Part shown: piece by piece, positions 18,532 to 52,463 of the stretch
Numbering within the stretch: the stretch's first letter is position 1
Layout of the letters: each line of letters opens with the position of its first letter
NCBI GenBank assembly: GCA_016182915.1
Contig: JACPFP010000002.1
Coordinates: 155,188-219,187, forward strand
DNA: 64,000 nucleotides
Origin: Candidatus Dojkabacteria bacterium
Lineage (GTDB): Bacteria; Patescibacteriota; Dojkabacteria; SC72
Direction of reading: 5' to 3'
Position numbers and translations under genes: made by a program
Notes under the pieces: generated by a model
Database searches by the model: none
The model's input: only the letters and a program-made list of their open reading frames with translations
What the model was told of the DNA's origin: nothing

Positions 18532-18607
18532 GGGCCCATAGTTTCAATTGGTAAAACAACGGTCTCCAAAACCGTATTTTCCCGTTCGAGTCGGGATGGG
18601 CCTGCCA
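18532..18607 (+). tRNA. tRNA-Trp (anticodon CCA)
   Basis: Acceptor GGGCCCA/TGGGCCT, anticodon stem ACGGT/ACCGT with loop CTCCAAA, T-arm TCCCG-TTCGAGT-CGGGA, 3' CCA. Confidence 0.9.
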
Positions 18608-30322: not shown

Positions 30323-31264
30323 GTGAAATACCTAATCCTTGATAAAAAGCAGAGAATACATATAGAGAATAAGTACTCATATGTACTAACTAGAATAGTC
30401 GAAGAACTGGAAAAGATGGGAGCAGAATATAAAGTGGCATACAATGACGAGATTGAAGTAGCATTTATAGAAGGAAAGACTACAATAAGTGTACAGGGTG
30501 AAAATATAGAGAATTTTTCTCACATAATGTTCAGAGGAATGAGGTTAGACAGGCAGATTGAATATGAAACACGAAAGATCATTGTAGACTATATTGAGCA
30601 ATATAATATCTCAAACCCAAGCAAAGCCATTAAGGTTCAAAATCTTAAAGCCATAAAAAGGACTCATTTCTACGATAAGATATTCATAACCCACCTATGT
30701 GTACAGAATGGAGTTGCAATAATGAACACACTTTATAGGCCTATGGGTAACTACTCCGTGGAACATTCGCCTCTTAAATACCCTATGATTGTAAAACAGT
30801 ACGCAGGAGAGAACGATATAAGAGTGATTGAAGGAAAGGAGACCGTTAAAAAGAATGTCTTTCTCGTAAATAGCCCTGAGGAATTCCAGCAGGAGCACCT
30901 TAGAGATAGAAATCTCTCTGAATACATAATTCAGGAATTCATACCCTCAGGTGAAGACTTCAGAGTATTCGTTTCCAAAGGAAAAGCCCATTCAGGTTTT
31001 GGAAGAAAAGCTACCACCAACTTCATGACTGTAAATGCCGGTGAATATGCCAAACTCGACTTAGAGAAAAGGTCAGATCTCAAAGAATTTGCCCAGAAGG
31101 TTTCCTCAGTTTTCGGAGCAGACTTCATCGCAGTTGATATGATGATGAAAAATGGAAAACCCGTGCTACAAGAAATTAGCTTCAATCCAGGCTTTAAAGC
31201 CTTTGAAACCAAAACCGATGGTGAGTTTATTAATATGGCAAAGGTAATAATCGAATCTCTTTAA
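30323..31264 (+). CDS. ATP-grasp family ligase (RimK/GshB-like)
   Basis: GTG start. ATP-grasp features (DFRVFVSKGK..., ADFIAVDMMMKNGKPVLQEISFNPG). Confidence 0.7.
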   Translation: MKYLILDKKQRIHIENKYSYVLTRIVEELEKMGAEYKVAYNDEIEVAFIEGKTTISVQGENIENFSHIMFRGMRLDRQIEYETRKIIVDYIEQYNISNPSKAIKVQNLKAIKRTHFYDKIFITHLCVQNGVAIMNTLYRPMGNYSVEHSPLKYPMIVKQYAGENDIRVIEGKETVKKNVFLVNSPEEFQQEHLRDRNLSEYIIQEFIPSGEDFRVFVSKGKAHSGFGRKATTNFMTVNAGEYAKLDLEKRSDLKEFAQKVSSVFGADFIAVDMMMKNGKPVLQEISFNPGFKAFETKTDGEFINMAKVIIESL

Positions 31265-32418
31265 ATCCCTAATCTCTTGAAAATCTGGTTAACCTTCTCA
31301 GGATCTAATACTAGTTTTGCCTTTGGAATAAGGCCATCTTCAACCCAGGAGACCTGCTTCATACTAATCTTTCCAGCATACAGCTTTTCGTAGAGGGAGG
31401 AATCCTTCGCAATTGCCTTCCTAACTCTCCTATATCCCCTAAAATACACGACATCCTTATAATATAGTCCTGGTAGTGATGTATCGCCTAACCCCCTTTT
31501 AACGCGGTATGCGAAGTCAAATGCGAGATTCTTAGCAAGAAACGCTGTCATTGCATTATATAGGTCCCTGAAACTTACAGCCTCCCCCCAATACAATAAC
31601 CAACTAAAGGTTGCTTTCCTCTTCAAGGCATCAAAAGTGAGGACTTTCATAAGTTCCTCATTATATGTTGCCAATCCCTCTTCAATATCCTGATATTCCG
31701 GCAAATTGGATTTATATAGAACGGGTACTCCAGAGTGGATTCCGTTATATGACCTTAATACATGCGTCCCAATCTCATGAACAATCGATTTCCTAAGGTC
31801 GATTTTGGAGCGGGAGATATCCCCAGAAAGCAGTACTTCCTTCCTCTTTACCCCTACTTTCATAGCCTCATCTGCAATTCTTCCAGACTTAGCAACGGTC
31901 CAATCAGAAAACCCCAATTCACCTAGAAATTTAGTCATAATCCTCTCTATTTCAGCATATTCATACTCTCTTCCCTCTTTCTTCTGTTCTACAAGGTCGT
32001 AGTTTGAAACTTTTCCCCTTAAAACGAGAGATGCATTTTTGAATAGTCTTGCTGATGGTCTACCAAACCTCTTCCTAGAGATCTCTGTAATTAACCGATT
32101 ATCCCCTACTGCATTAAGCATATCGTTAACCTCTGATTTAGATTCTATGAGTTTCAGATAGAATTCTGAGATTCTTGGATCAACGTCAGAAATACTGGTT
32201 ATATCAGCTAACTCACGAAGGAGAGAGGAATTAACATTCTTAACAGGCTTATATTTAAAGTTAGGACTGTATGTCTCCGATTCAATAAACTTCTGCTTCT
32301 CCTCATCCAAGTTTATAGGCGTAAATACGTATGAAGTTGGGAGTTTAAGAAGATCTAGTTTCGCAACAACCTCTTCCTGTGTAACAACTCTTTTTCCCCT
32401 TCTACTAAATATAAACAC
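31261..32418 (-). CDS. DUF1704/MATCAP-like QEGLA-motif putative metallocarboxypeptidase
   Basis: EEGLATY (a QEGLA-like motif) and an HExxxH-type motif VHEIGTHVL. 4-bp convergent overlap with the ATP-grasp gene. Confidence 0.65.
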   Translation of the reverse strand: MFIFSRRGKRVVTQEEVVAKLDLLKLPTSYVFTPINLDEEKQKFIESETYSPNFKYKPVKNVNSSLLRELADITSISDVDPRISEFYLKLIESKSEVNDMLNAVGDNRLITEISRKRFGRPSARLFKNASLVLRGKVSNYDLVEQKKEGREYEYAEIERIMTKFLGELGFSDWTVAKSGRIADEAMKVGVKRKEVLLSGDISRSKIDLRKSIVHEIGTHVLRSYNGIHSGVPVLYKSNLPEYQDIEEGLATYNEELMKVLTFDALKRKATFSWLLYWGEAVSFRDLYNAMTAFLAKNLAFDFAYRVKRGLGDTSLPGLYYKDVVYFRGYRRVRKAIAKDSSLYEKLYAGKISMKQVSWVEDGLIPKAKLVLDPEKVNQIFKRLGI

Positions 32419-32464: not shown

Positions 32465-33721
32465 CTACCAATCTAAATCAGAGAGGAAGGCTCCAAGAAG
32501 AAACCAAACCCAGGGTGTCATGAAAAAATCGTATGTTATATTTCCGACGACGATGATTGAAAAGAGGCCCAATATAAGCGGAGACTTCCTTTTAAGTAAC
32601 TCAAGACCTAGGGAAATCACTACAAAACCAAAGGATAGAATCCCAATAATTCCCCCTTCTGCAAGCATTTTGGCATATACGGAATGTGGGGTAGCAAACT
32701 GGACCCTACTATCTATATTTTCCCTGTAATATTGAGGGAAATTCCCTATTCCAATTCCTAACACAGGATGTTTAAGAAAGATTTTAATAGATTGAATCCA
32801 GTAGTTTATATGTTCATTCGCTGAAAAATCGGCAAGGGTCAACCTTGTTAAAGCAAGAGGAAGGAATGAGGAATACACACGGCCTTTAACACCATCCTTA
32901 CGCATTATGAATCTATGACCATAGTAGACAATGAATCCTACTATTAATGCTAAATAGCCCGTTCTTGATGCCGTTAGAAGAATCATAGCAAGAGATAAAA
33001 TAAGAACAGATGTCGATAGAAGCATACTCTTTCTCTTATTAATCAGATCTACAGAAAAAACTGAAATCATAGCAAGAAAAACAGCAAATACATTAGTATC
33101 AATCATTAATGAACTAGGCCTGAGAAACAGTCCATTATCGGCAGTCCTAATATTGAATGCTGAGGCAGAAACAAAACCGCCTTTATCAAATACGCTAATA
33201 AACCATCCTAAATCCTGATTCATTCGATAATCCACATACTGCGTTAATCCAACAATAATCAGGATGAGAGCAGAAAAAAGTAATCCTTTCTTAAAAGTAT
33301 CACTGTCGCTCTTTTTAGGTAGTACAATTCCGACAAGGAATAGAGAGATGAGTATAGAATAATATCCTAACCCCATAATACTCTCATTAAGATTGTAAGA
33401 GGTCAGTAAAGATATAGCGGAAGCTAGGAGAAAGACACCTAAAGAGATAAATACAACCTTATACCGGATGAAAGCGGTGACAACAGCATCGAAAAGAGTA
33501 CGGAGACTTTTTCGGCAATATATCAAGTAGATTGCTAATAGAACCAAATATACAACTATCCATAATACTTTAGTCAGAGTTCTTGGACTTATCTCTCCTT
33601 CTGCTAAAATATCAACTATAAATGAGAGCCTTCCGGAAATAAGAATAAATAGAAATACGGATAGTATATATCCCATATTATGATGATATCTCTTTAGTAA
33701 ATACTCTATCTCCACTTGCAA
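32465..33721 (-). CDS. O-antigen ligase/polymerase-like (Wzy_C) polytopic membrane protein
   Basis: >10 TM helices. LTASRTGYLALIVG and HSVYAKMLAEGGIIG match the Wzy_C family R/H motifs. The true start is probably the internal Met near 33676. Confidence 0.6.
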   Translation of the reverse strand: MQVEIEYLLKRYHHNMGYILSVFLFILISGRLSFIVDILAEGEISPRTLTKVLWIVVYLVLLAIYLIYCRKSLRTLFDAVVTAFIRYKVVFISLGVFLLASAISLLTSYNLNESIMGLGYYSILISLFLVGIVLPKKSDSDTFKKGLLFSALILIIVGLTQYVDYRMNQDLGWFISVFDKGGFVSASAFNIRTADNGLFLRPSSLMIDTNVFAVFLAMISVFSVDLINKRKSMLLSTSVLILSLAMILLTASRTGYLALIVGFIVYYGHRFIMRKDGVKGRVYSSFLPLALTRLTLADFSANEHINYWIQSIKIFLKHPVLGIGIGNFPQYYRENIDSRVQFATPHSVYAKMLAEGGIIGILSFGFVVISLGLELLKRKSPLILGLFSIIVVGNITYDFFMTPWVWFLLGAFLSDLDW

Positions 33722-34691
33722 TCAGTTCAAGAGCCATACCAGTACCCTTAGCCACACAGAACATAGGTTCATCTGCAACATGAGCAGGTACACCCGTTGC
33801 CTTGGAGAAGAGCTTATCCAGATTTTTCAAGAGTGACGTTCCTCCGCTCATAACCATCCCTCTATCGATTATATCAGCGGCTAACTCTGGAGGAGTTTTC
33901 TCCAAAACCTCTTTTATAGCGCCAATAATCTTTGATAGTGCAAATTTCAAAGCCTCCGCAATCTCATTTGAATCAATCTTAATTGATTTTGGCATTCCCC
34001 CTGCTACATCCCTACCCTTTATCTCCATCTCCTTAGGATTCTGAACCTTAATTGCGGAACCAATTTTCATCTTAATACTCTCTGCTGTCTGCTCTCCAAT
34101 CAAGATTCCTCTCTTCCTTCTCATGTATGCAATTATGGATTCATTTAGGGCATCTCCAGCAACGCGTAGAGAGTTGAATTCAACAATACCGTCAAGTGAT
34201 ATAACTGCAATCTCTGCTGTACCACCACCAAGGTTAACAATCATATTTCCAGAAGAGGTTTCAATAGGTAGGCCTGCACCAAGGGATGCCAGAAGAGGTT
34301 CAGGAAGAAGACTTACTTTTCTCGCCCCTGCTCCCATAGCAGCCTTTAATACAGCTCTTTCCTCAACAGATGTAATTCCTGCAGGCACACTAATCATTAC
34401 TTCAGGCTTGAAGAACTTTGATGTTCCCAATGCCTTATTTAAAAAGTATTTTAACAACGCCTCTGTTACTCTGGAATCTGCAATTACACCGCTTCTAAGA
34501 GGCCTTTTAGCAACGATATTATCTGGAGTTTTACCTATCATTTCTTTTGCCTGCTGCCCTACCGCTATCACTGTGAACTTATTCACATCGATAGCTACAA
34601 CTGTAGGCTCCATAAGGACAATACCTTCTCCCTCAACAAAAACTATTGAGTTAGCAGTTCCTAGATCTATTCCTACCTTTTTTCCAAACAT
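33678..34691 (-). CDS. second MreB-like actin homolog (paralog)
   Basis: VGIDLGTANSIVFV..., NLGGGTAEIAVISL and MSGGTSLLKNL motifs. Confidence 0.85.
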   Translation of the reverse strand: MFGKKVGIDLGTANSIVFVEGEGIVLMEPTVVAIDVNKFTVIAVGQQAKEMIGKTPDNIVAKRPLRSGVIADSRVTEALLKYFLNKALGTSKFFKPEVMISVPAGITSVEERAVLKAAMGAGARKVSLLPEPLLASLGAGLPIETSSGNMIVNLGGGTAEIAVISLDGIVEFNSLRVAGDALNESIIAYMRRKRGILIGEQTAESIKMKIGSAIKVQNPKEMEIKGRDVAGGMPKSIKIDSNEIAEALKFALSKIIGAIKEVLEKTPPELAADIIDRGMVMSGGTSLLKNLDKLFSKATGVPAHVADEPMFCVAKGTGMALELIASGDRVFTKEISS

Positions 34692-34731: not shown

Positions 34732-36204
34732 TTAGTATTTAATCAACATAGCTTCTTTCATCTGATCAGCCACTCCTCTAGCTATCCCCCTTACCTTCTT
34801 ACTCCCTTCGAGCGCCTTTCTTAGTAATTCTTCCTTCATACCTTCAGCAACCTTTCTCCTCTCTCTTATTGGGGTTAGGAACTCATTCATTACTTTGAAA
34901 AGAATCTCTTTAACCTCAACATCCCCTATCCTCCCTTCTCTATATCTCCTTTTTAACTCTTCTACCTGCTGCTTATCCTCATTAAAAAGGTCGTGGTATG
35001 CAAAGGCGATATTACCTTCGACAGTTCCCTTATCCGTTGCGCTCTTCCTATTTGGATCTGTATATACACTAAAGACCTTCTTTCTAAGGACCTCTTCACT
35101 ATCTGAAAGGTATATAGCATTATTTAAACTCTTCCCCATCTTCGAGTTCCCATCAATACCTGGAACATTGGTTGCAACTCCATACAGTCCTTCAGGCTGG
35201 TGTAAGTACTTCACTTTATATGTACTATTAAACTTCCTTACAATCTCTCTTGTATCTTCAATCATAGGGGCCTGATCCTTTCCTACGGGAACCAAATCCG
35301 CGTTAACACACAATATATCTGCAGCCTGGTGAATAGGATATACAAAGAAACCAAGTGGCGTGGACTCCTCCATATTATTCTGTTTAATCTCAGTTTTAAT
35401 AGTTGGGTTATGCATAATCTGCTGAACAGAGGTGAAGTTTGCCAAATACATAAATATTTCATGTACCTCAGGTACTTCAGACTGAATATACACAGTACTC
35501 TTATCGAAATCTATTCCTACAGCATAGTAGTCACAGAGAAGTTCAAGAATACTTTCTTTAACCATCTGAGGATTATCTGCATTGTCACTAAGGGCATGGA
35601 TATTTGCAATGAGGATAAACTGCTCGTACTCATCTTGTAAGGCAACCCTATTTTTAAGAGTGCCCATATAATGACCTACATGCATCTTTCCAGTTGGCCT
35701 ATCACCAGTTAAGATCCTCTTCTTTCCACTTACAGAACGCTCTGATGGCGCGGTGAATTTTCCAATAGTCCCTCTTGTGATAGTTAAAAGATCCTTTGGA
35801 GCAAGTTGAATATCAGTAAATTCATCTCCAGCACCTCCATTAATTACCTTTCTCTCCAGTAGTGATTCATCCATATAGTATTTTAGTGATGGATGGTAAA
35901 CCCCAACTGCGCCAACGGTAAATCCGAAATTGTTCTTTACCTCTTCAGGGGTTGCCATGTTTAAACTCTTAACTCCCATCAGCTTCTTCAGTTCATTGGA
36001 TAGGATTTTCCTGTCATCCCTTCTATGCACACCAACGAATCCTTTTTCAGTTTTAAAGATAAGGGTAGAGACTCCATCCTCGAATGATATATTTACCGCT
36101 CTAACTCCTTCTTCAACTGTGAATACGGCTCCATGCTTAACAAAGCTTACTTCCTTTAAGCCTAACTCCTTAACCCTATTTTGTAATACCTCTAAGTTAC
36201 TCAT
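34732..36204 (-). CDS. trpS: tryptophanyl-tRNA synthetase with N-terminal YbaK/ProX-like deacylase domain
   Basis: C-terminal class I core (TGDRPTGKMHVGHYMG HIGH region; KMGKS). The N-terminal ~170 aa resemble the YbaK trans-editing domain (TLIFKTEKGFVGV..., GFTVGAVGVY, VINGGAGD). Confidence 0.85.
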   Translation of the reverse strand: MSNLEVLQNRVKELGLKEVSFVKHGAVFTVEEGVRAVNISFEDGVSTLIFKTEKGFVGVHRRDDRKILSNELKKLMGVKSLNMATPEEVKNNFGFTVGAVGVYHPSLKYYMDESLLERKVINGGAGDEFTDIQLAPKDLLTITRGTIGKFTAPSERSVSGKKRILTGDRPTGKMHVGHYMGTLKNRVALQDEYEQFILIANIHALSDNADNPQMVKESILELLCDYYAVGIDFDKSTVYIQSEVPEVHEIFMYLANFTSVQQIMHNPTIKTEIKQNNMEESTPLGFFVYPIHQAADILCVNADLVPVGKDQAPMIEDTREIVRKFNSTYKVKYLHQPEGLYGVATNVPGIDGNSKMGKSLNNAIYLSDSEEVLRKKVFSVYTDPNRKSATDKGTVEGNIAFAYHDLFNEDKQQVEELKRRYREGRIGDVEVKEILFKVMNEFLTPIRERRKVAEGMKEELLRKALEGSKKVRGIARGVADQMKEAMLIKY

Positions 36205-36491
36205 ATTTATTTAGAATAAAATAAAAAATCCCCATATAACTAGACTAACATATTTTCAAAGTTAATCTAACTATATGGGGACGATATGGATAATCGTGGT
36301 ACCACCCCTATTCTCTTAGTATATTATACTAAGACTCATCGACTTTATATAAACATCGATTGAACCTTTACAGTGTTCCTCTGGCGCTCATACTTTCTTT
36401 TCAGATTTCTGTTTGCTGCTCCGGGGCCCATTCTCCCCATCAACGCATTTATTACTCAATTGTATTACATTATACCATACAGAAACGCTTC

Positions 36492-42936: not shown

Positions 42937-44667
42937 TTATAGGGATTTATTAACAACCCCCATTACCTTACCAAGTATATCTCCCTCGTTAACAATCTCT
43001 GCTGTATCTGAATTTCTCTCCTTAAATTCATATCCACCCTTCTCAAGGCTCCTATCACTAACAACTATCCTTATAGGTATACCAATTAAATCAGCATCAG
43101 CAAACTTTGCACCTGCACTCACATCTTCTCTTTCATCCCAAAGGACTTCAACTCCATTTTCTATAAGGTTGTTATATAAGGCGTCACTTTTTGAAACGGC
43201 ATCCTGTGATCCAAGAGTTATTAGATGAACATGATATGGAGAAATACCTATAGGCCAGACTATACCTTTTTCATCACTCATAATCTCAACAACTGCCGCC
43301 ATAGTTCTTCCAATTCCAATGCCATAGCAACCCATATAGTACTTCTTCTTCTTTCCATCTACATCAACAAACTCAGCATTCTTCATAAGGTTAGAATAGT
43401 GATATCCAAGCTGGAAAATATTACCAACTTCAATACCCTTTCTTGCAATCAGCTTAGAACCTGAGATAGATTTAAAACCCTCTCTGGCAAATGCGATATC
43501 ACCCTCTAAATCAGCTTTATAGTCTCTATCAATATTTACGTTTAGACTATCCTTGTTTAAGGCATTTGCCCCACCATATGCATTCTTGATAGTTCTTAAA
43601 GACCTATCTGCAACGATTAGCAGCTCAACAGACGAATCCATATTTTCTTTCATTCCTACTGGGGAGATAAATCCAGGTTCACTCTTAAGAAGAGTTCTAA
43701 TATCCTCTTCGCTTGCATGCTCCAAAGTTATACTACCCGTTAGATGACTTAGTTTTACTTCATTAACATCAAGATCTCCTCTTAACACAGCAAGGATATA
43801 TCTTCCCTTATCATCTTTATACATAACATCCTTTATCTGCATATGCATAGGAAGACCATGAAGCTTAACTCCATCTTCCATTGTTGTTCCTCTTACCGCA
43901 TCTATAACTTGCAAGGGTTTCATCTCTTCATCGACATTGATATCTTCAAGAGCGAATTCTGCAACCTCCTCATGAGCTGCATAACTTCCGTCTTCTGTAA
44001 CAAAGTATGTACTCTCACCTATCTCAGAATCTACAACAAATTCGTGACAATACTCTCCCCCAATATAGCCGTTATCTGCTAATACCATAGTTGTCTTCAA
44101 ACCCATTCTTTCAAAGATTCTTGTATATGTCTCTGCCATTTTCTGATACTCAAGTTTGAAACTTTCCTCATCCCTATCAAAAGAGTATGCATCCTTCATA
44201 ACGAACTCCCTAACTCTCAGGAGTCCTCCACGAGCTCTCATTTCATCTCTAAACTTGGTTGAAAACTGATATATATTACATGGGAGATCCTTATAAGACA
44301 TATTATACTTCCTAAAAACATCAACAAACATCTCTTCTGCTGTACCACCGAGTGCAAATTCCGCCCCTCTTCTATCCTTAACCTTCATTAACTCAAAGCC
44401 TGTTGTATTTGTCCTGTTTGTCTCTTTCCATAGTTCCAATGGATGAAGGATTGGAGAGATCATCTTCTGAGCTCCTGCTCTATCCATCTCCTCTTCAATT
44501 ATCTCCATGATCTTATCCTGAACTCTCATTCCTAAAGGAAGTATGAAGTATCGCCCTGCAACGCTCTCGGCAATGTATCCTGCCTGTAACAACAACTTGT
44601 GGGATACCATAGTTGCATCCTTAGAGATTGTTTTACTTGTCTTTCCAAATAGTTTTGAATATTTCAT
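42937..44667 (-). CDS. proS: prolyl-tRNA synthetase (bacterial type with INS editing domain)
   Basis: Class II motifs with N-terminus MKYSKLFGKTSK...HKLLLQAGYI. 576 aa. Confidence 0.9.
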   Translation of the reverse strand: MKYSKLFGKTSKTISKDATMVSHKLLLQAGYIAESVAGRYFILPLGMRVQDKIMEIIEEEMDRAGAQKMISPILHPLELWKETNRTNTTGFELMKVKDRRGAEFALGGTAEEMFVDVFRKYNMSYKDLPCNIYQFSTKFRDEMRARGGLLRVREFVMKDAYSFDRDEESFKLEYQKMAETYTRIFERMGLKTTMVLADNGYIGGEYCHEFVVDSEIGESTYFVTEDGSYAAHEEVAEFALEDINVDEEMKPLQVIDAVRGTTMEDGVKLHGLPMHMQIKDVMYKDDKGRYILAVLRGDLDVNEVKLSHLTGSITLEHASEEDIRTLLKSEPGFISPVGMKENMDSSVELLIVADRSLRTIKNAYGGANALNKDSLNVNIDRDYKADLEGDIAFAREGFKSISGSKLIARKGIEVGNIFQLGYHYSNLMKNAEFVDVDGKKKKYYMGCYGIGIGRTMAAVVEIMSDEKGIVWPIGISPYHVHLITLGSQDAVSKSDALYNNLIENGVEVLWDEREDVSAGAKFADADLIGIPIRIVVSDRSLEKGGYEFKERNSDTAEIVNEGDILGKVMGVVNKSL

Positions 44668-48871: not shown

Positions 48872-48946
48872 ATCGGGGTGACCTGACTCGAACAGGCGAC
48901 CTCTACGTCCCGAACGTAGCGTTCTAGCCATCTGAACTACACCCCG
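48872..48946 (-). tRNA. tRNA-Pro (anticodon CGG)
   Basis: Reverse complement gives CGGGGTG...CTACG-TTCGGGA-CGTAG...TTCGAGT...CACCCCG-A. Confidence 0.85.
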
Positions 48947-48949
48947 AAA

Positions 48950-49856: not shown

Positions 49857-52463
49857 TTACATCTGCTCTACTGTATCTATCCCTAGAATATAAAGGGCTT
49901 TCTTAAGAATCTCAGTTGTAATATATACAAGCCTTAGTCTACTCTCTTTTACGTTTAAATCTCTCTCATTCTGAATATTGAATTCCCCATAGAATTTATT
50001 AAAGGATTCTGACAACTCATAGATATATCTGCAAAGAAGATGCGGAGATATATTATTTGCCGCATTCTTCACGAGTTCAGGATATTCACCTATCTTCTTT
50101 AATAGCTCTATCTCAACTTCACTATTAAGGACCTTATCCAATTCTAATTCCTTACTTCTAAATTCATACTTACAATTTCTTAGAATACTTAAACCTCTCG
50201 CATATGAATAGAGGATATATGGAGCCGCAAAGCCTGTCATACTCATAAACTTATCTATATCCCAGTTGATATCCTTATGAAGTTCATGTGAAAGTATTGC
50301 GAACTTCAGGGCCCCCATTGCAACAGTATGCGCAATTAAATCCTTCTCCTCATTACTATACCCTTTGTCTACACCTATACTCTTTCGAGCAATCTCCTCT
50401 GCCTCTGCTATAAGGTCAGTATATTTAACATTCTTTCCCGTTTTAGAACTCATCTTCTTGTTCTCGAAAAGCAACCATCCAAAACCAATATGCATATACT
50501 TTCCTTCAAGGTTAGGGAAGATAAGCTCGAGAGCTTTAATCATAGCCTTGAAGTATGCGTTCTGTTCTACTGACGTTGTTACAATGGCAAGATCTAAGGA
50601 AGGATAGTCAGTGAACTTTTTGACTGCTAAACCTAAGTCCTTACCAGAGTACGAAGGGAAACCGGCAGAGGTTAAGAACACCCATCTTTGAAGGCCATAT
50701 TTCTCGCCCTCAAAGATAACCGCTCCAGCATCCTTGGTAAAGACCTTTCCTATGTTCTCAGTTACAATCTCCTTCCCATTTTTCCATACAACAGATTCTG
50801 GATACTGTATATCATACTCAACTCCAAGCTCCTTAAATGCCTTATCCTGATGTTTGATACTAATCTCCCTTGTATATTCATAAAGCTCAATAATATTTTC
50901 ATCTGAGCGATTGTATATCTTCATATTTATATCTTTAACCTCTTCTAAAACATTCTCTTTCTCCGAAGACAGTTTTCTACCGAATACATACGATTGATCA
51001 AGATATCTAGCGGCTTCATCTATCCCCTTTTCCTTAACAATTTGGTCTAAACTCTCTTTAATTTCGGCAACATCCTCCTTTGAAAGCTTGCTATACCACG
51101 TCCCATTTCTGTTTATAACTCCCCATATACAGTTAGAGACCTGAAGACCAATATCCCCAAAGTAGTTAGCTTTGATTACATCGTATCCGAGATTGGCATA
51201 AAGTCTGGCAATTGGAAGACCTGTTACCGCACTTTTGAAGTGTCCTAGTTGTAGGGCTTTATGGGTGTTGGGCTGGCCAAACTCTACCATAACCTGTTTT
51301 CCCCTCCCGATATCTCCTTTTCCGTACTCCTCACTATAGCTATTTACAACGCTTTTAACCTCTTCACTCTTAATAAAGAAGTTTATATATCCTGGATTTA
51401 CGGTTTCAACTCTATCTATGAAATCAAGTTTCTTAATATTTCCGGCTAGTTCCTGCGCAATCTTAATTGGAGCCTTCTTAAGTTTTTCTGCAAGGTTCAT
51501 CGCTACTGTTGTAGAGTAGTCTCCAAACTTATTGTTATTATTTTTTATAATGACAACCCTATTCTTCCCTGCAAGAAGGTCTTTGGAAAGTGTAAGGACA
51601 GAGTCGTATACAATCACTTGTATCTTTTCCTCAATACTTCCTTCGTCATACTCGTAAGTCTTCTCCTCCTTCTTCTGAGCCTGTACTTTAACCTGGTCAA
51701 CTTTCTGAATTACAGGTATAGATACTCCTTCTATATCTTTAGACTTATAGTCGATTTCAACCTCGGGAGTTTCAATATCCAGGGTAATTACAAAACCTTT
51801 TCCTCCAAAGTTAGATGTTACATAATCTATAAATTCATTTGCCGCTTTCAATATATTTTTCTCGTTAATTCCTTTGAAACCATCCATAATGAAATATCCA
51901 TCTTTAGACTCCTCTGTTAGTTTTGTTCTTTCACACTGTCTCCAGTTTAACGAGAGGGTCGAAACATCATAATCATCGGCCCAGATAAGATCACCGATCT
52001 TTGGAGACTTAGCCTTTTCTTCTGAGATACCTAACCAATGTTCATCTCCTTTTGCAAACTTCATCACAAAATCACCGTAGACTTTGCTAAGATCCTCGCC
52101 ACCAAAAGGAGTAATGTACTTAATACTGAAGGAATTATATAGATCAACAATAGGATTAATTCTAGGAAGATTTCCACCCTCTACTACTCTTGATGCTAAA
52201 GCGAAATGTGTTGGTTTAGTTCTCTTAGGATTAGCCCCGAATTTCTCGAAGGCTTCAAAATACGCTTTTATGTATGGGTGGGAGACAATCTCATCACTCC
52301 CCTCTACTTCCTTTATAAGAGTCTTCTGAGCATTCTCTTTAAATTTTGTAAGGAGTTTCTCTTTATCTTCATTCCAACTATTATCAAATCCCTGAATAAT
52401 CGGGATTGCGACAAAAAGATCAGGGAATTTTTCGAATACCTCACTTTCAATTCTAAATTTCAT
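49857..52463 (-). CDS. argS: arginyl-tRNA synthetase fused to N-terminal B3/4 tRNA-binding domain
   Basis: C-terminal class I ArgRS (PNTHKALQLGH HIGH region, Arg_tRNA_synt_N-like segment, anticodon-binding tail). The N-terminal ~225 aa match the stand-alone B3/4 domain protein pattern (MKFRIESEVFEKFPDL..., LPRINPIVDLYNSFSIKYITPFGGEDL, WRQCERTKLTEESKD). 868 aa. Confidence 0.9.
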   Translation of the reverse strand: MKFRIESEVFEKFPDLFVAIPIIQGFDNSWNEDKEKLLTKFKENAQKTLIKEVEGSDEIVSHPYIKAYFEAFEKFGANPKRTKPTHFALASRVVEGGNLPRINPIVDLYNSFSIKYITPFGGEDLSKVYGDFVMKFAKGDEHWLGISEEKAKSPKIGDLIWADDYDVSTLSLNWRQCERTKLTEESKDGYFIMDGFKGINEKNILKAANEFIDYVTSNFGGKGFVITLDIETPEVEIDYKSKDIEGVSIPVIQKVDQVKVQAQKKEEKTYEYDEGSIEEKIQVIVYDSVLTLSKDLLAGKNRVVIIKNNNNKFGDYSTTVAMNLAEKLKKAPIKIAQELAGNIKKLDFIDRVETVNPGYINFFIKSEEVKSVVNSYSEEYGKGDIGRGKQVMVEFGQPNTHKALQLGHFKSAVTGLPIARLYANLGYDVIKANYFGDIGLQVSNCIWGVINRNGTWYSKLSKEDVAEIKESLDQIVKEKGIDEAARYLDQSYVFGRKLSSEKENVLEEVKDINMKIYNRSDENIIELYEYTREISIKHQDKAFKELGVEYDIQYPESVVWKNGKEIVTENIGKVFTKDAGAVIFEGEKYGLQRWVFLTSAGFPSYSGKDLGLAVKKFTDYPSLDLAIVTTSVEQNAYFKAMIKALELIFPNLEGKYMHIGFGWLLFENKKMSSKTGKNVKYTDLIAEAEEIARKSIGVDKGYSNEEKDLIAHTVAMGALKFAILSHELHKDINWDIDKFMSMTGFAAPYILYSYARGLSILRNCKYEFRSKELELDKVLNSEVEIELLKKIGEYPELVKNAANNISPHLLCRYIYELSESFNKFYGEFNIQNERDLNVKESRLRLVYITTEILKKALYILGIDTVEQM

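What the first reader, a model, noticed from the sequence alone, without database searches (positions are those of the whole stretch)
34732..36204. Tryptophanyl-tRNA synthetase fused to a YbaK/ProX-like aminoacyl-tRNA deacylase domain
TrpRS is not known to need editing, yet the N-terminal ~170 aa show the YbaK trans-editing domain pattern (TLIFKTEKG..., GF.VGAVGV, NGGAGD). A complete TrpRS core follows (HIGH-like TGDRPTGKMHVGHYMG; KMGKS). Together with the ArgRS-B3/4 fusion, this indicates lineage-specific remodelling of aaRS quality control.
Basis: partly seen in the sequence, partly recalled or inferred. Interest (0 to 1): 0.6.

Follow-up and report, generated by a model that had tools for sequence, protein, structure and literature searches.

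The report
TrpRS with rewired editing-like N-domain
A candidate-phyla bacterium (Dojkabacteria) makes a tryptophan-charging enzyme fused to a proofreading-type domain that lacks the family's hallmark lysine and has an arginine beside that position instead, hinting at an undescribed error-checking module for tryptophan and tyrosine tRNAs whose activity is still untested.

Summary
ORF 34732-36204 (-) is one 490-aa protein: an INS/YbaK-superfamily domain (PF04073, E 5e-18; model TM 0.87 to T. thermophilus ProX and APE2540) joined to a complete TrpRS (TIGR00233 253 bits; KMGKS). A Trp-specific T-box leader (UGG in a very short Stem I) precedes it, so it behaves as a genuine trpS.

The domain is not a canonical YbaK or ProX deacylase. 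The superfamily's conserved lysine is Ser46 here, and the proline of the GXXXP loop is Val. The domain belongs to a distinct Lys-less "RRDD" clade in which Arg/Lys61, cross-strand from position 46 in the model, replaces the lost lysine (59 domains with the swap, 107 canonical, 1 with both).

This clade is tied to class-Ic synthetases in several CPR lineages: N- or C-terminal TrpRS fusions, tandem copies, a TyrRS fusion, a B3/4+INS+TrpRS triple fusion, and split adjacent genes. The same window encodes ProRS with an intact INS domain and ArgRS fused to a CtdA-like deacylase.

Best reading (about 0.45): a rewired cis-proofreading module acting on tRNA-Trp. Main rival (about 0.35): a non-catalytic tRNA-end-binding appendage, as in Plasmodium TrpRS. 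I found no published description. It is a new variant of a known kind.

The parts
34732..36204 (-). Whole gene: 490-aa fusion protein (INS-like domain + linker + TrpRS); stop codon at 34732-34734
   Evidence: ORF list and sequence; Pfam and NCBIfam; 24 fused homologues among the best 120
35749..36204 (-). N-terminal INS/YbaK-superfamily domain, aa 1-152 (Pfam match aa 24-141 = 35782-36135)
   Evidence: PF04073 E 4.7e-18. Profile against PDB: APE2540 1e-17, ProRS INS 8e-14, YbaK 1e-10. AF2 model pLDDT 92.8; Foldseek TM 0.87 to 2z0k and 1wdv
36067..36069 (-). Codon for Ser46, at the position of the superfamily's conserved catalytic lysine (Hi YbaK K46 by my numbering of the FKTL motif)
   Evidence: Aligned to the K of VKTL/VKSL/AKTM/YKTL/FKTL/IKSV in six solved relatives. 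The column is S18/A6/K1 in 25 fused proteins
36013..36024 (-). Codons for Arg61-Arg62-Asp63-Asp64, the 'RRDD' clade signature. Arg61 is the proposed stand-in for the lost lysine
   Evidence: Near-invariant in the fused family. Hairpin E44-52/E55-62 in both models places residue 61 opposite residue 46. Covariation table
35899..35913 (-). Codons for Gly98-Ala-Val-Gly-Val102, the remodelled GXXXP loop (Gly kept, Pro replaced by Val)
   Evidence: G98 is invariant. Position 102 is P in 19 of 25 fused proteins but V/L/I in the window's own subclade. Pro102 is present in 55% of Lys-less domains and 97% of canonical ones
35722..35748 (-). Inter-domain linker, aa 153-161
   Evidence: pLDDT below 50 at residues 156-159 in the full-length model. 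Region of variable length in alignment A1
34735..35721 (-). TrpRS catalytic core and anticodon-binding helices, aa 162-490. HIGH-like TGKMHVGH at 35671-35694; KMGKS at 35128-35142
   Evidence: TIGR00233 253 bits against 176.75. Foldseek: C. trachomatis TrpRS 6ncr and D. radiodurans TrpRS II 1yi8, target-normalised TM 0.85-0.89. Motif residues invariant in A1
36274..36452 (-). T-box leader RNA with a very short Stem I: GGGG 36435-36438, loop AGAAUGGG 36427-36434 with UGG at 36428-36430, CCCC 36423-36426. T-box sequence GGGGUGGUACCACG at 36295-36308
   Evidence: RF00230 66.6 bits, E 2.3e-14, below the gathering score of 93. Conserved in L082 at 54.5 bits, E 2.5e-11, with compensatory Stem I changes and an invariant loop. 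tRNA-Trp(CCA) with G73 lies at 18532-18607
36215..36280 (-). Intrinsic terminator of the T-box: arms 36266-36280 and 36230-36244, U-run 36215-36229. Its 5' arm overlaps the 3' side of the antiterminator
   Evidence: Read directly from the sequence. The CCCCAUA and UGGGGAUUUU elements are conserved in L082
36469..36477 (-). Candidate extended -10 promoter element, TGGTATAAT
   Evidence: Read from the sequence. The same nonamer is present in the L082 leader. This is a consensus match only, not tested

Best explanation
The gene is a genuine trpS of a Candidatus Dojkabacteria (CPR) genome. A Trp-specific T-box leader controls its transcription. Whether the genome has a second trpS could not be checked. 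Its product is a complete TrpRS with an N-terminal domain of about 150 aa from the INS (YbaK/ProX) editing superfamily.

That domain belongs to a distinct subfamily for which I found no description. In it, the superfamily's catalytic lysine on strand beta2 is replaced by a small residue (Ser46 here). A basic residue appears at the directly cross-strand position on beta3 (Arg61, in an 'RRDD' motif).

I propose that the domain still binds the aminoacylated 3' end of tRNA. Arg61 would take over the lysine's role of positioning the A76 phosphate, and the small residue at 46 would enlarge the pocket. On this reading the domain acts in cis, after transfer, to hydrolyse tRNA-Trp carrying a wrong aromatic residue, such as a Trp analogue, Tyr, Phe or possibly D-Trp.

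Shown: the architecture, the fold, the Lys-to-small-residue and Arg61 pattern, the genomic linkage to TrpRS and TyrRS, and the T-box. Inferred: the spatial equivalence of Arg61 and the lysine, any hydrolytic activity, and the substrate.
For: - Domain identity and fold.
- The domain is maintained rather than decaying. T47, K73, G98, D112 and G124 are invariant, and R61, R62, D63 and D64 are at least 90% conserved across fused proteins that share only 36% mean identity in this domain.
- Charge relocation. Among 178 domain instances, 107 have K/R at column 46 with no basic residue at 61, 59 have the reverse, 1 has both and 11 have neither. Within the clade, P0008 is K46/A61 while its relative P0013 is A46/K61. 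DSSP on both models gives a hairpin E44-52/E55-62, which pairs residue 46 with residue 61.
- Rosetta-stone linkage to class-Ic synthetases:
  - N-terminal fusions on several TrpRS types and in Dojkabacteria, Doudnabacteria and Shapirobacteria genomes
  - a C-terminal TrpRS fusion (P0175)
  - a tandem copy (P0121)
  - a TyrRS fusion (P0125, TIGR00234 291 bits)
  - a B3/4+INS+TrpRS protein (P0130)
  - two independent split versions, with the domain gene 6-10 nt upstream of trpS
- A free-standing Lys-less member exists in a complete genome (P0138), so the subfamily can function on its own, as an enzyme would.
- In-genome precedent: ArgRS in this window is fused to a domain most similar to the canavanyl-tRNA(Arg) deacylase CtdA (E 1e-24; PMC12449066). 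That is a trans-editing factor joined to the synthetase of its own tRNA.
- The T-box with a UGG loop shows the gene is regulated as trpS.
Against: - Both motifs used by all INS members characterised to date are altered (PMC11286415). The lysine is absent, and the GXXXP proline is kept in only 55% of the clade and is Val in this protein.
- The domain evolves about twice as fast as the core, 36% against 73% mean pairwise identity.
- Many Dojkabacteria have an unfused TrpRS with no INS-like gene within 3 kb. Others carry a C-terminal tRNA_bind domain instead (P0067). So the module is dispensable in close relatives.
- The Lys/Arg covariation is mostly one ancestral event, one clade of 60 with about 3 changes by parsimony. 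It is not many independent events.
- No coordinates were available, so the Arg61 geometry rests only on the strand register.
- TrpRS has no known editing requirement. The closest precedents, the Plasmodium TrpRS AlaX-like domain and the yeast ProRS N-terminal domain, are described as non-editing (title cited).
Confidence: 0.45

Rival explanations
1. Non-catalytic appendage. The INS-like domain has lost editing chemistry and serves only to bind or hold tRNA-Trp, or its 3' end. This would raise tRNA affinity or shield Trp-tRNA-Trp in an organism with a minimal translation apparatus. The AlaX-like domain of Plasmodium TrpRS is the model for this.
For: - The hallmark Lys is absent and the GXXXP Pro is lost in this protein.
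- The domain evolves faster than the core.
- Sister Dojkabacteria TrpRSs are unfused, or carry a C-terminal tRNA_bind (PF01588) domain that could do an equivalent job.
Against: - Invariant or near-invariant polar and acidic residues (T47, D63, D64, D112) around the canonical site are not what a generic RNA-binding surface needs.
- A basic residue reappears exactly cross-strand of the lost Lys.
- The domain is not basic: mean pI 7.0, net charge about 0.
- Free-standing and split-gene members exist.
- The same window fuses a CtdA-like deacylase to ArgRS.
Confidence: 0.35
2. A conventional YbaK/ProXp-type trans-editing factor for tRNA-Pro (Cys- or Ala-tRNA-Pro), or for another non-Trp tRNA, that is merely tethered to TrpRS for co-expression or stability.
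For: - The nearest solved relatives are ProX, YbaK and ProRS INS proteins that act on tRNA-Pro.
- YbaK is known to work in complexes with ProRS (PMC6344894, listed).
Against: - The YbaK equivalog model scores 29 bits against a cut-off of 153.
- The catalytic Lys is absent.
- ProRS in the same window already has an INS domain with the Lys retained.
- The partner is consistently a class-Ic synthetase and never ProRS, across fusions, tandem copies and split genes.
Confidence: 0.08
3. Artefact: two adjacent genes merged by a sequencing, assembly or frameshift error, or a wrong start codon, so that no fusion protein is made. This is what NCBI's 380-aa call implies.
For: - NCBI annotates only a 380-aa product starting at Met111.
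- Split two-gene versions do exist elsewhere.
Against: - The reading frame is continuous in the window and in at least 24 independent homologues from different samples.
- The first 110 aa are conserved at protein level, 59% identity to P0002 over the domain.
- They are needed to complete a confidently folded domain, pLDDT 92.8.
- The T-box terminator ends about 10 nt before the ATG at 36204.
- Met111 lies inside the domain.
Confidence: 0.02

Closest known systems
Free-standing INS-superfamily trans-editing proteins: T. thermophilus ProX TTHA1699 (2cx5, 2z0k) and A. pernix APE2540 (1wdv)
   Same: Same fold and size. Best sequence and structure matches: TM 0.87, rmsd 1.7-2.0 A, 25-26% identity; profile E 1e-17 to 1wdv.
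   Different: These keep the VK(T/S)L lysine and the GXXXP proline and are single-domain proteins. The window's domain has Ser46, Arg61, the RRDD motif and Val102, and it is covalently joined to TrpRS.
INS editing domain of bacterial ProRS (cis editing of Ala-tRNA-Pro), including the copy in this window at 42937-44667
   Same: Same superfamily, built into a synthetase so that editing acts in cis. Profile E 8e-14 to 5znj. The 'RGD/RRDD' strand aligns.
   Different: INS is inserted between motifs 2 and 3 of a class II enzyme and keeps the lysine (IKDV in the window's ProRS). Here the domain is an N-terminal appendage on a class I enzyme and lacks the lysine.
Plasmodium falciparum cytosolic TrpRS with an N-terminal AlaX-like domain (PMC3240968, PMC3680381)
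   Same: The only described TrpRS that carries a homologue of a trans-editing factor at its N-terminus. That domain is also non-canonical.
   Different: It has a different fold (AlaX, not INS) on a eukaryotic-type TrpRS, and is reported as restricted to alveolates. The authors concluded tRNA binding rather than editing. It shows no relocated catalytic residue.
S. cerevisiae ProRS N-terminal INS/ProXp-ala-like domain ('defunct editing domain', SternJohn et al. 2007, seen only as a citation)
   Same: An INS-like domain appended at the N-terminus of a synthetase and reported as inactive in editing. The details are from my own knowledge; the paper was not readable here.
   Different: It is attached to ProRS, the family's usual partner. 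I know of no conserved replacement basic residue and no dedicated subfamily with split, tandem or C-terminal variants.
CtdA canavanyl-tRNA(Arg) deacylase (9f7e, 9mkl; PMC12449066) and its fused form on the ArgRS of this window
   Same: A trans-editing factor linked to the synthetase whose tRNA it acts on, and an in-genome parallel to the TrpRS fusion.
   Different: It has a B3/4 fold, not INS. The pocket residues N, G, E and Q appear conserved in the ArgRS fusion, whereas the INS-like domain on TrpRS has lost its hallmark residues.
Deinococcus radiodurans TrpRS II (1yi8) and Chlamydia TrpRS (6ncr), for the synthetase core
   Same: Closest solved cores: 42-46% identity, target-normalised TM 0.85-0.89.
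   Different: These are single-domain enzymes. That TrpRS II tolerates Trp analogues is my recollection only and was not tested here.

Membership tests
INS / YbaK / ProX editing superfamily (Pfam PF04073 tRNA_edit) | Profile match above the curated threshold | tested here: met
   65.9 bits against a gathering score of 25.5, E 4.7e-18, covering profile positions 1-122 of 123
INS / YbaK / ProX editing superfamily (Pfam PF04073 tRNA_edit) | YbaK-type alpha/beta fold | tested here: met
   AF2 model pLDDT 92.8, pTM 0.87. Foldseek TM 0.87 to 2z0k and 1wdv, 0.79-0.82 to the YbaKs, and the first 37 hits are all family members or scaffolds derived from them. This is a predicted structure, not a solved one
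INS / YbaK / ProX editing superfamily (Pfam PF04073 tRNA_edit) | Highly conserved catalytic lysine on beta2, used by all members characterised to date (PMC11286415) | tested here: not met
   Ser46 aligns to that Lys in 1wdv, 2cx5, 5znj, 2dxa, 1dbu and 2j3l. In 25 fused proteins the column is S18/A6/K1
INS / YbaK / ProX editing superfamily (Pfam PF04073 tRNA_edit) | GXXXP loop | tested here: not met
   The window has G98-A-V-G-V102: Gly kept, Pro replaced. In the Lys-less clade G98 is present in 98% and P102 in 55%, against 97% in canonical members
INS / YbaK / ProX editing superfamily (Pfam PF04073 tRNA_edit) | Hydrolysis of a mischarged aminoacyl-tRNA | not testable with these tools
   Needs deacylation assays
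YbaK sensu stricto (Cys-tRNA(Pro) deacylase, TIGR00011 / NF007951) | Equivalog model score above the cut-off | tested here: not met
   TIGR00011 scores 29.2 bits against a cut-off of 153.25
Bacterial tryptophanyl-tRNA synthetase (TIGR00233 trpS) | Equivalog model score above the cut-off | tested here: met
   253 bits against 176.75, covering profile positions 2-326 of 328. tyrS scores only 45 bits
Bacterial tryptophanyl-tRNA synthetase (TIGR00233 trpS) | Class I signature motifs (HIGH-like and KMSKS) and the TrpRS fold | tested here: met
   TGKMHVGH at aa 171-178 and KMGKS at aa 355-359, with most motif residues (T171, G172, H175, G177, H178; K355, M356, K358, S359) invariant in A1. Foldseek top 50 are almost all TrpRS structures (one is a design on that scaffold), best 6ncr and 1yi8
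T-box leader (Rfam RF00230) | Covariance-model score at or above the gathering score | tested here: not met
   66.6 bits against a gathering score of 93, although E is 2.3e-14. The shortfall comes from about 70 nt of Stem I being absent
T-box leader (Rfam RF00230) | T-box sequence in an antiterminator bulge that competes with a terminator, and a specifier codon matching the regulated gene | tested here: met
   GGGGUGGUACCACG plus an overlapping terminator with a U-run. UGG lies in the invariant Stem I loop, with compensatory stem changes in L082. The bulge base is U or C, either of which can pair with G73 of tRNA-Trp. That the specifier sits in a terminal loop is inferred, not shown

The most novel reading that the evidence does not exclude
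The Lys-less 'RRDD' INS-like domains would be the first dedicated post-transfer editing system for the class-Ic synthetases TrpRS and TyrRS, enzymes thought not to need editing. They would use a rewired active site, with Arg on beta3 in place of Lys on beta2 and an enlarged pocket. Their job would be to clear aromatic non-protein amino acids, oxidised Trp or Tyr derivatives, or D-Trp and D-Tyr from tRNA-Trp and tRNA-Tyr in CPR bacteria. Together with the ArgRS-CtdA fusion, this would show that streamlined CPR genomes hard-wire trans-editing factors onto their cognate synthetases.
Probability: 0.3. Interest if true: 0.8.

Novelty: new variant of a known kind. Interest (0 to 1): 0.62.

Why it matters
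TrpRS and TyrRS are textbook examples of synthetases that rely on active-site selectivity alone. A conserved editing-superfamily module is genomically tied to both of them, by fusion at either end, duplication and adjacent split genes. That would either extend proofreading to class Ic, or give a clean natural example of an editing fold repurposed as a tRNA-handling domain.

The apparent relocation of the essential basic residue, from Lys on beta2 to Arg on the neighbouring strand, is a concrete hypothesis about how the INS active site works, and it can be tested by mutagenesis.

There is also an annotation consequence. The public gene call for this genome starts inside the domain, so fusions of this kind may be missed elsewhere too. 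The ArgRS-CtdA-like fusion in the same window suggests a wider pattern in CPR bacteria.

Tried and rejected
- A word-indexed homologue search with the N-domain alone found nothing. With the N-domain alignment it found only 4 proteins. The exhaustive profile search was needed instead.
- The N-domain alignment was too divergent to back-translate for a genome scan.
- Rfam at gathering threshold missed the T-box. It was found only with the E-value threshold.
- No T-box was detected upstream of more distant fused or unfused relatives. The leader may be confined to the window's close lineage, or too divergent to detect.
- I computed a Fisher test on the 46/61 covariation (p about 1e-34) but do not rely on it. 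The NJ tree shows essentially one clade and about 3 changes.
- Domain charge and pI do not separate the binding and catalytic hypotheses.
- The AFDB50 fold library was unavailable.
- Model coordinates are not exposed, so the Arg61-to-Lys distance could not be measured.
- Cluster look-up returned no organism names for the unusual architectures.
- Literature searches:
  - No paper describes a YbaK/INS-TrpRS fusion.
  - No paper links D-aminoacyl-tRNA deacylase with Patescibacteria.
  - Bartholow 2014, SternJohn 2007 and Kuzmishin Nagy 2020 are not held. I therefore could not check whether one of the nine INS clusters in the 2020 review corresponds to this clade.
- I considered and rejected a canonical YbaK or ProXp-ala function and a gene-merging artefact (see the rival explanations).
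Full report
**1. Observation**

The window holds one uninterrupted 490-aa ORF at 34732-36204 on the minus strand.
- Pfam places PF04073 (tRNA_edit, the INS/YbaK/ProX editing superfamily) at aa 24-141, with E 4.7e-18 and 65.9 bits against a cut-off of 25.5.
- Pfam places PF00579 (class I Trp/Tyr synthetase) at aa 162-443, with E 2.3e-60.
- The curated trpS equivalog TIGR00233 scores 253 bits against a cut-off of 176.75, while tyrS scores 45.
- The best homologues come from Candidatus Dojkabacteria, a CPR/Patescibacteria lineage. 24 of the best 120 have the same two-domain architecture at 488-522 aa.
- NCBI's own product for this exact sequence (P0001) is 380 aa and starts at Met111, inside the domain. 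The public annotation therefore hides the fusion.

**2. Regulation and context**

The 5' leader at 36274-36452 matches the T-box family with 66.6 bits and E 2.3e-14. This is below Rfam's gathering score of 93 because about 70 nt of Stem I are missing.
- The leader has the T-box sequence GGGGUGGUACCACG.
- It has a terminator whose 5' arm overlaps the antiterminator, followed by a U-run that ends about 10 nt before the ATG.
- Stem I is reduced to a 4-bp hairpin with the loop AGAAUGGG.
- In the closest fused relative (P0002, locus L082) synteny is conserved and the leader is again a T-box, with 54.5 bits and E 2.5e-11.
- There the stem differs by compensatory changes (GGGG/CCCC against CAGG/CCUG) while the loop is identical. 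The loop contains UGG, the Trp codon.
- The discriminator-pairing base is U in the window and C in L082. Both can pair with G73 of the tRNA-Trp(CCA) encoded at 18532-18607.

So the gene is regulated as a genuine trpS, and the leader abuts the 490-aa start rather than Met111.

**3. What the N-terminal domain is**

- A profile of 25 N-domains hits solved INS-superfamily proteins only: APE2540 (1e-17), ProRS INS (8e-14), E. coli and H. influenzae YbaK (1e-10), and ProXp-ala, ProX and PrdX homologues (1e-5 to 1e-6).
- An AlphaFold2 model of aa 1-152 is confident, with pLDDT 92.8 and pTM 0.87.
- It superposes on T. thermophilus ProX (TM 0.87, rmsd 2.0 A) and APE2540 (TM 0.87, rmsd 1.7 A), then on the YbaKs and ProRS INS domains.
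- Superfamily and fold membership are therefore met.
- It is not YbaK in the strict sense: TIGR00011 scores 29 bits against a cut-off of 153.

**4. The hallmark residues are not there**

- In every alignment to a solved member, that lysine (VKTL, VKSL, AKTM, YKTL, FKTL, IKSV) aligns to Ser46 of the window protein.
- Across 25 fused proteins the column is S18/A6/K1.
- In the GXXXP loop the Gly (G98) is invariant. The Pro (position 102) is Val here, and V/L/I in the window's own subclade.
- The N-domain averages 36% pairwise identity against 73% for the TrpRS core.
- It nevertheless keeps its own fixed set. T47, K73, G98, D112 and G124 are invariant. R61, R62, D63 and D64 are at least 90% conserved.

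**5. A relocated basic residue**

DSSP on both models gives a beta-hairpin, E44-52 and E55-62 with a two-residue turn. That register puts residue 61 directly opposite residue 46, with both side chains on the same face of the sheet.

I tabulated 178 domain instances from an exhaustive profile search of 1.8 billion representatives, together with the fused homologues.

| Column 46 | Column 61 | Count |
|---|---|---|
| K/R | not basic | 107 |
| not basic | R/K | 59 |
| K/R | R/K | 1 |
| not basic | not basic | 11 (several are gaps) |

- The single fused protein that keeps K46 (P0008) has A61. Its relative P0013 has A46 and K61.
- On an NJ tree the Lys-less domains form essentially one clade of 60, with P0219 outside and about 3 parsimony changes.
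- This is therefore a clade signature with a few correlated reversals, not many independent events.
- In the same clade the GXXXP proline is kept in 55%, against 97% of canonical domains.

**6. What the clade is attached to**

The Lys-less domain occurs in these forms:
- At the N-terminus of several different TrpRS types (P0124, P0126, P0128, P0133, P0137, P0142, P0176, P0219).
- In fused ORFs in Dojkabacteria, Doudnabacteria and Shapirobacteria genomes (L010, L008, L052).
- At the C-terminus of a TrpRS (P0175).
- In tandem before a TrpRS (P0121).
- Before a bona fide TyrRS (P0125, TIGR00234 291 bits).
- Behind a B3/4 domain on a TrpRS (P0130).
- As a separate gene. In two independent samples it sits 6-10 nt upstream of an unfused trpS. 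In L086 the junction reads TAA, then a 10-nt spacer with a second stop, then ATG and a canonical TrpRS N-terminus.
- As a free-standing member (P0138) in a complete 1.45-Mb genome, with no translation genes nearby.

Lys-retaining relatives are overwhelmingly free-standing proteins of about 150 aa. One Lys-retaining copy is C-terminal on an archaeal-type TyrRS (P0174).

Many Dojkabacteria TrpRSs are truly unfused, starting MKKRILTGDRPTG, with no INS-like ORF within 3 kb. Two have a C-terminal tRNA_bind domain instead.

**7. The rest of the window**

- ProRS (42937-44667) is a bacterial-type enzyme with its own INS domain, and the lysine is retained (IKDV). Ala-tRNA-Pro editing is probably already covered.
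- ArgRS (49857-52463; TIGR00456 343 bits) has an N-terminal B3/4 domain. Its best solved relatives are the canavanyl-tRNA(Arg) deacylases CtdA 9mkl and 9f7e (E about 1e-24), not PheRS.
- The pocket residues named in PMC12449066 appear mostly conserved in that alignment (DLYN, GGE, NWRQ).
- That paper does not contain the words 'fused' or 'fusion'.
- This is an in-genome example of a trans-editing factor joined to the synthetase of its own tRNA.

**8. Mechanism**

My best reading, at about 0.45, is that the domain is a rewired cis-proofreading module.
- It binds the aminoacylated CCA end of tRNA-Trp after transfer.
- Arg61 replaces the lysine in positioning A76.
- The small residue at 46 opens the pocket.
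- It hydrolyses non-cognate aromatic aminoacyl-tRNA-Trp.

The support is the maintained polar and acidic core, the compensating basic residue, the Rosetta-stone linkage to TrpRS and TyrRS in every configuration, the free-standing members and the ArgRS-CtdA parallel.

The main rival, at about 0.35, is a non-catalytic tRNA-end-binding appendage. This was concluded for the AlaX-like domain of Plasmodium TrpRS (PMC3680381) and reported for the N-terminal INS-like domain of yeast ProRS (title cited). It is favoured by the loss of both hallmark motifs, the fast evolution and the fact that sister lineages do without the module.

A conventional tRNA-Pro editing role (about 0.08) and an artefact (about 0.02) are poorly supported.

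No activity has been shown. The substrate is an inference, and the idea of D-Trp and D-Tyr clearance is speculation prompted by the TrpRS/TyrRS pairing.

**9. Novelty and limits**

I found no paper describing an INS or YbaK domain on TrpRS or TyrRS, or a Lys-less INS subfamily. The key review of INS clusters was not readable, so the clade may correspond to one of its uncharacterised clusters.

The architecture is visible in automated Pfam annotations of public proteins. What is new is the recognition and the anatomy, not the sequences. I rate it a new variant of a known kind.

Limits:
- no model coordinates
- a 25-sequence alignment behind the models
- an NJ tree on a short domain
- no whole-genome view, so the presence of dtd, a second trpS or a free ybaK could not be checked

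Noticed in passing
window 49857-52463 (-): The 868-aa ArgRS carries an N-terminal B3/4 domain. Its closest solved relatives are the canavanyl-tRNA(Arg) deacylases CtdA (9mkl E 1e-24, 9f7e E 3e-24), not the PheRS editing domain. Most CtdA pocket residues look conserved. This would be a cis-fused version of a recently discovered trans-editing factor, and the CtdA paper I read does not mention fusions.
   Followed up: partly
window 36274-36452 (-); L082 5764-5942: The T-box riboswitch has Stem I reduced to a 4-bp hairpin whose 8-nt terminal loop (AGAAUGGG) carries the UGG specifier. It scores below Rfam's gathering score and was missed by the default scan. It is conserved, with compensatory changes, in a second Dojkabacteria genome. 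It recalls the 'ultrashort Stem I' T-boxes of Actinobacteria (my recollection), but here a transcription terminator is present.
   Followed up: partly
window 34732-36204 (-); protein P0001: NCBI's annotation of this same sequence calls a 380-aa TrpRS that starts at Met111, inside the INS-like domain. P0029 (a contig-edge fragment) and P0030 (a short call) also look like truncated versions of fused genes. Automated start-codon choice may be hiding other fusions of this kind.
   Followed up: partly
window 42937-44667 (-): The bacterial-type ProRS (576 aa) has an INS editing domain at aa 261-371 that retains the family lysine (IKDV). tRNA-Pro(CGG) is nearby at 48872-48947.
   Followed up: partly
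proteins P0125, P0130, P0121/P0271, P0175, P0174 (not in the window): The same INS-like domain appears in other architectures: N-terminal on a TyrRS, B3/4 + INS-like + TrpRS, a tandem pair + TrpRS (791 aa in full), C-terminal on a TrpRS, and a Lys-retaining copy C-terminal on an archaeal-type TyrRS. The organisms could not be identified.
   Followed up: partly
L086 3001-4510; JGI 3300050046 contig of 6928 bp: Natural split versions exist: a 167-168-aa INS-like gene ending in the linker motif PNLNRQ, then 6-10 nt, then a separate 331-aa trpS. They were seen in two independent samples.
   Followed up: yes
proteins P0067, P0101 (Dojkabacteria-like TrpRS, not in the window): Close relatives of the TrpRS core (73-74% identity) carry a C-terminal PF01588 tRNA_bind (Trbp111/EMAP-like) domain instead of the N-terminal INS-like domain. 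The TrpRS of this lineage has picked up different appended domains.
   Followed up: no
window 31261-32418 (-), next to mreB at 33678-34691: A 385-aa protein matches PF08014 MATCAP (microtubule-associated tyrosine carboxypeptidase, E 4e-31). It sits near MreB (an O-antigen-ligase-like gene lies between them here). In L082 the MreB and MATCAP genes are directly adjacent. This is an odd family to find in a CPR bacterium.
   Followed up: no
window 34735-35721 (-): The TrpRS core is of the type found in Chlamydia, Streptococcus and Clostridium, and in D. radiodurans TrpRS II (46% identity to 1yi8). From memory, TrpRS II accepts Trp analogues, which would be relevant to an editing need. This was not checked.
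   Followed up: no
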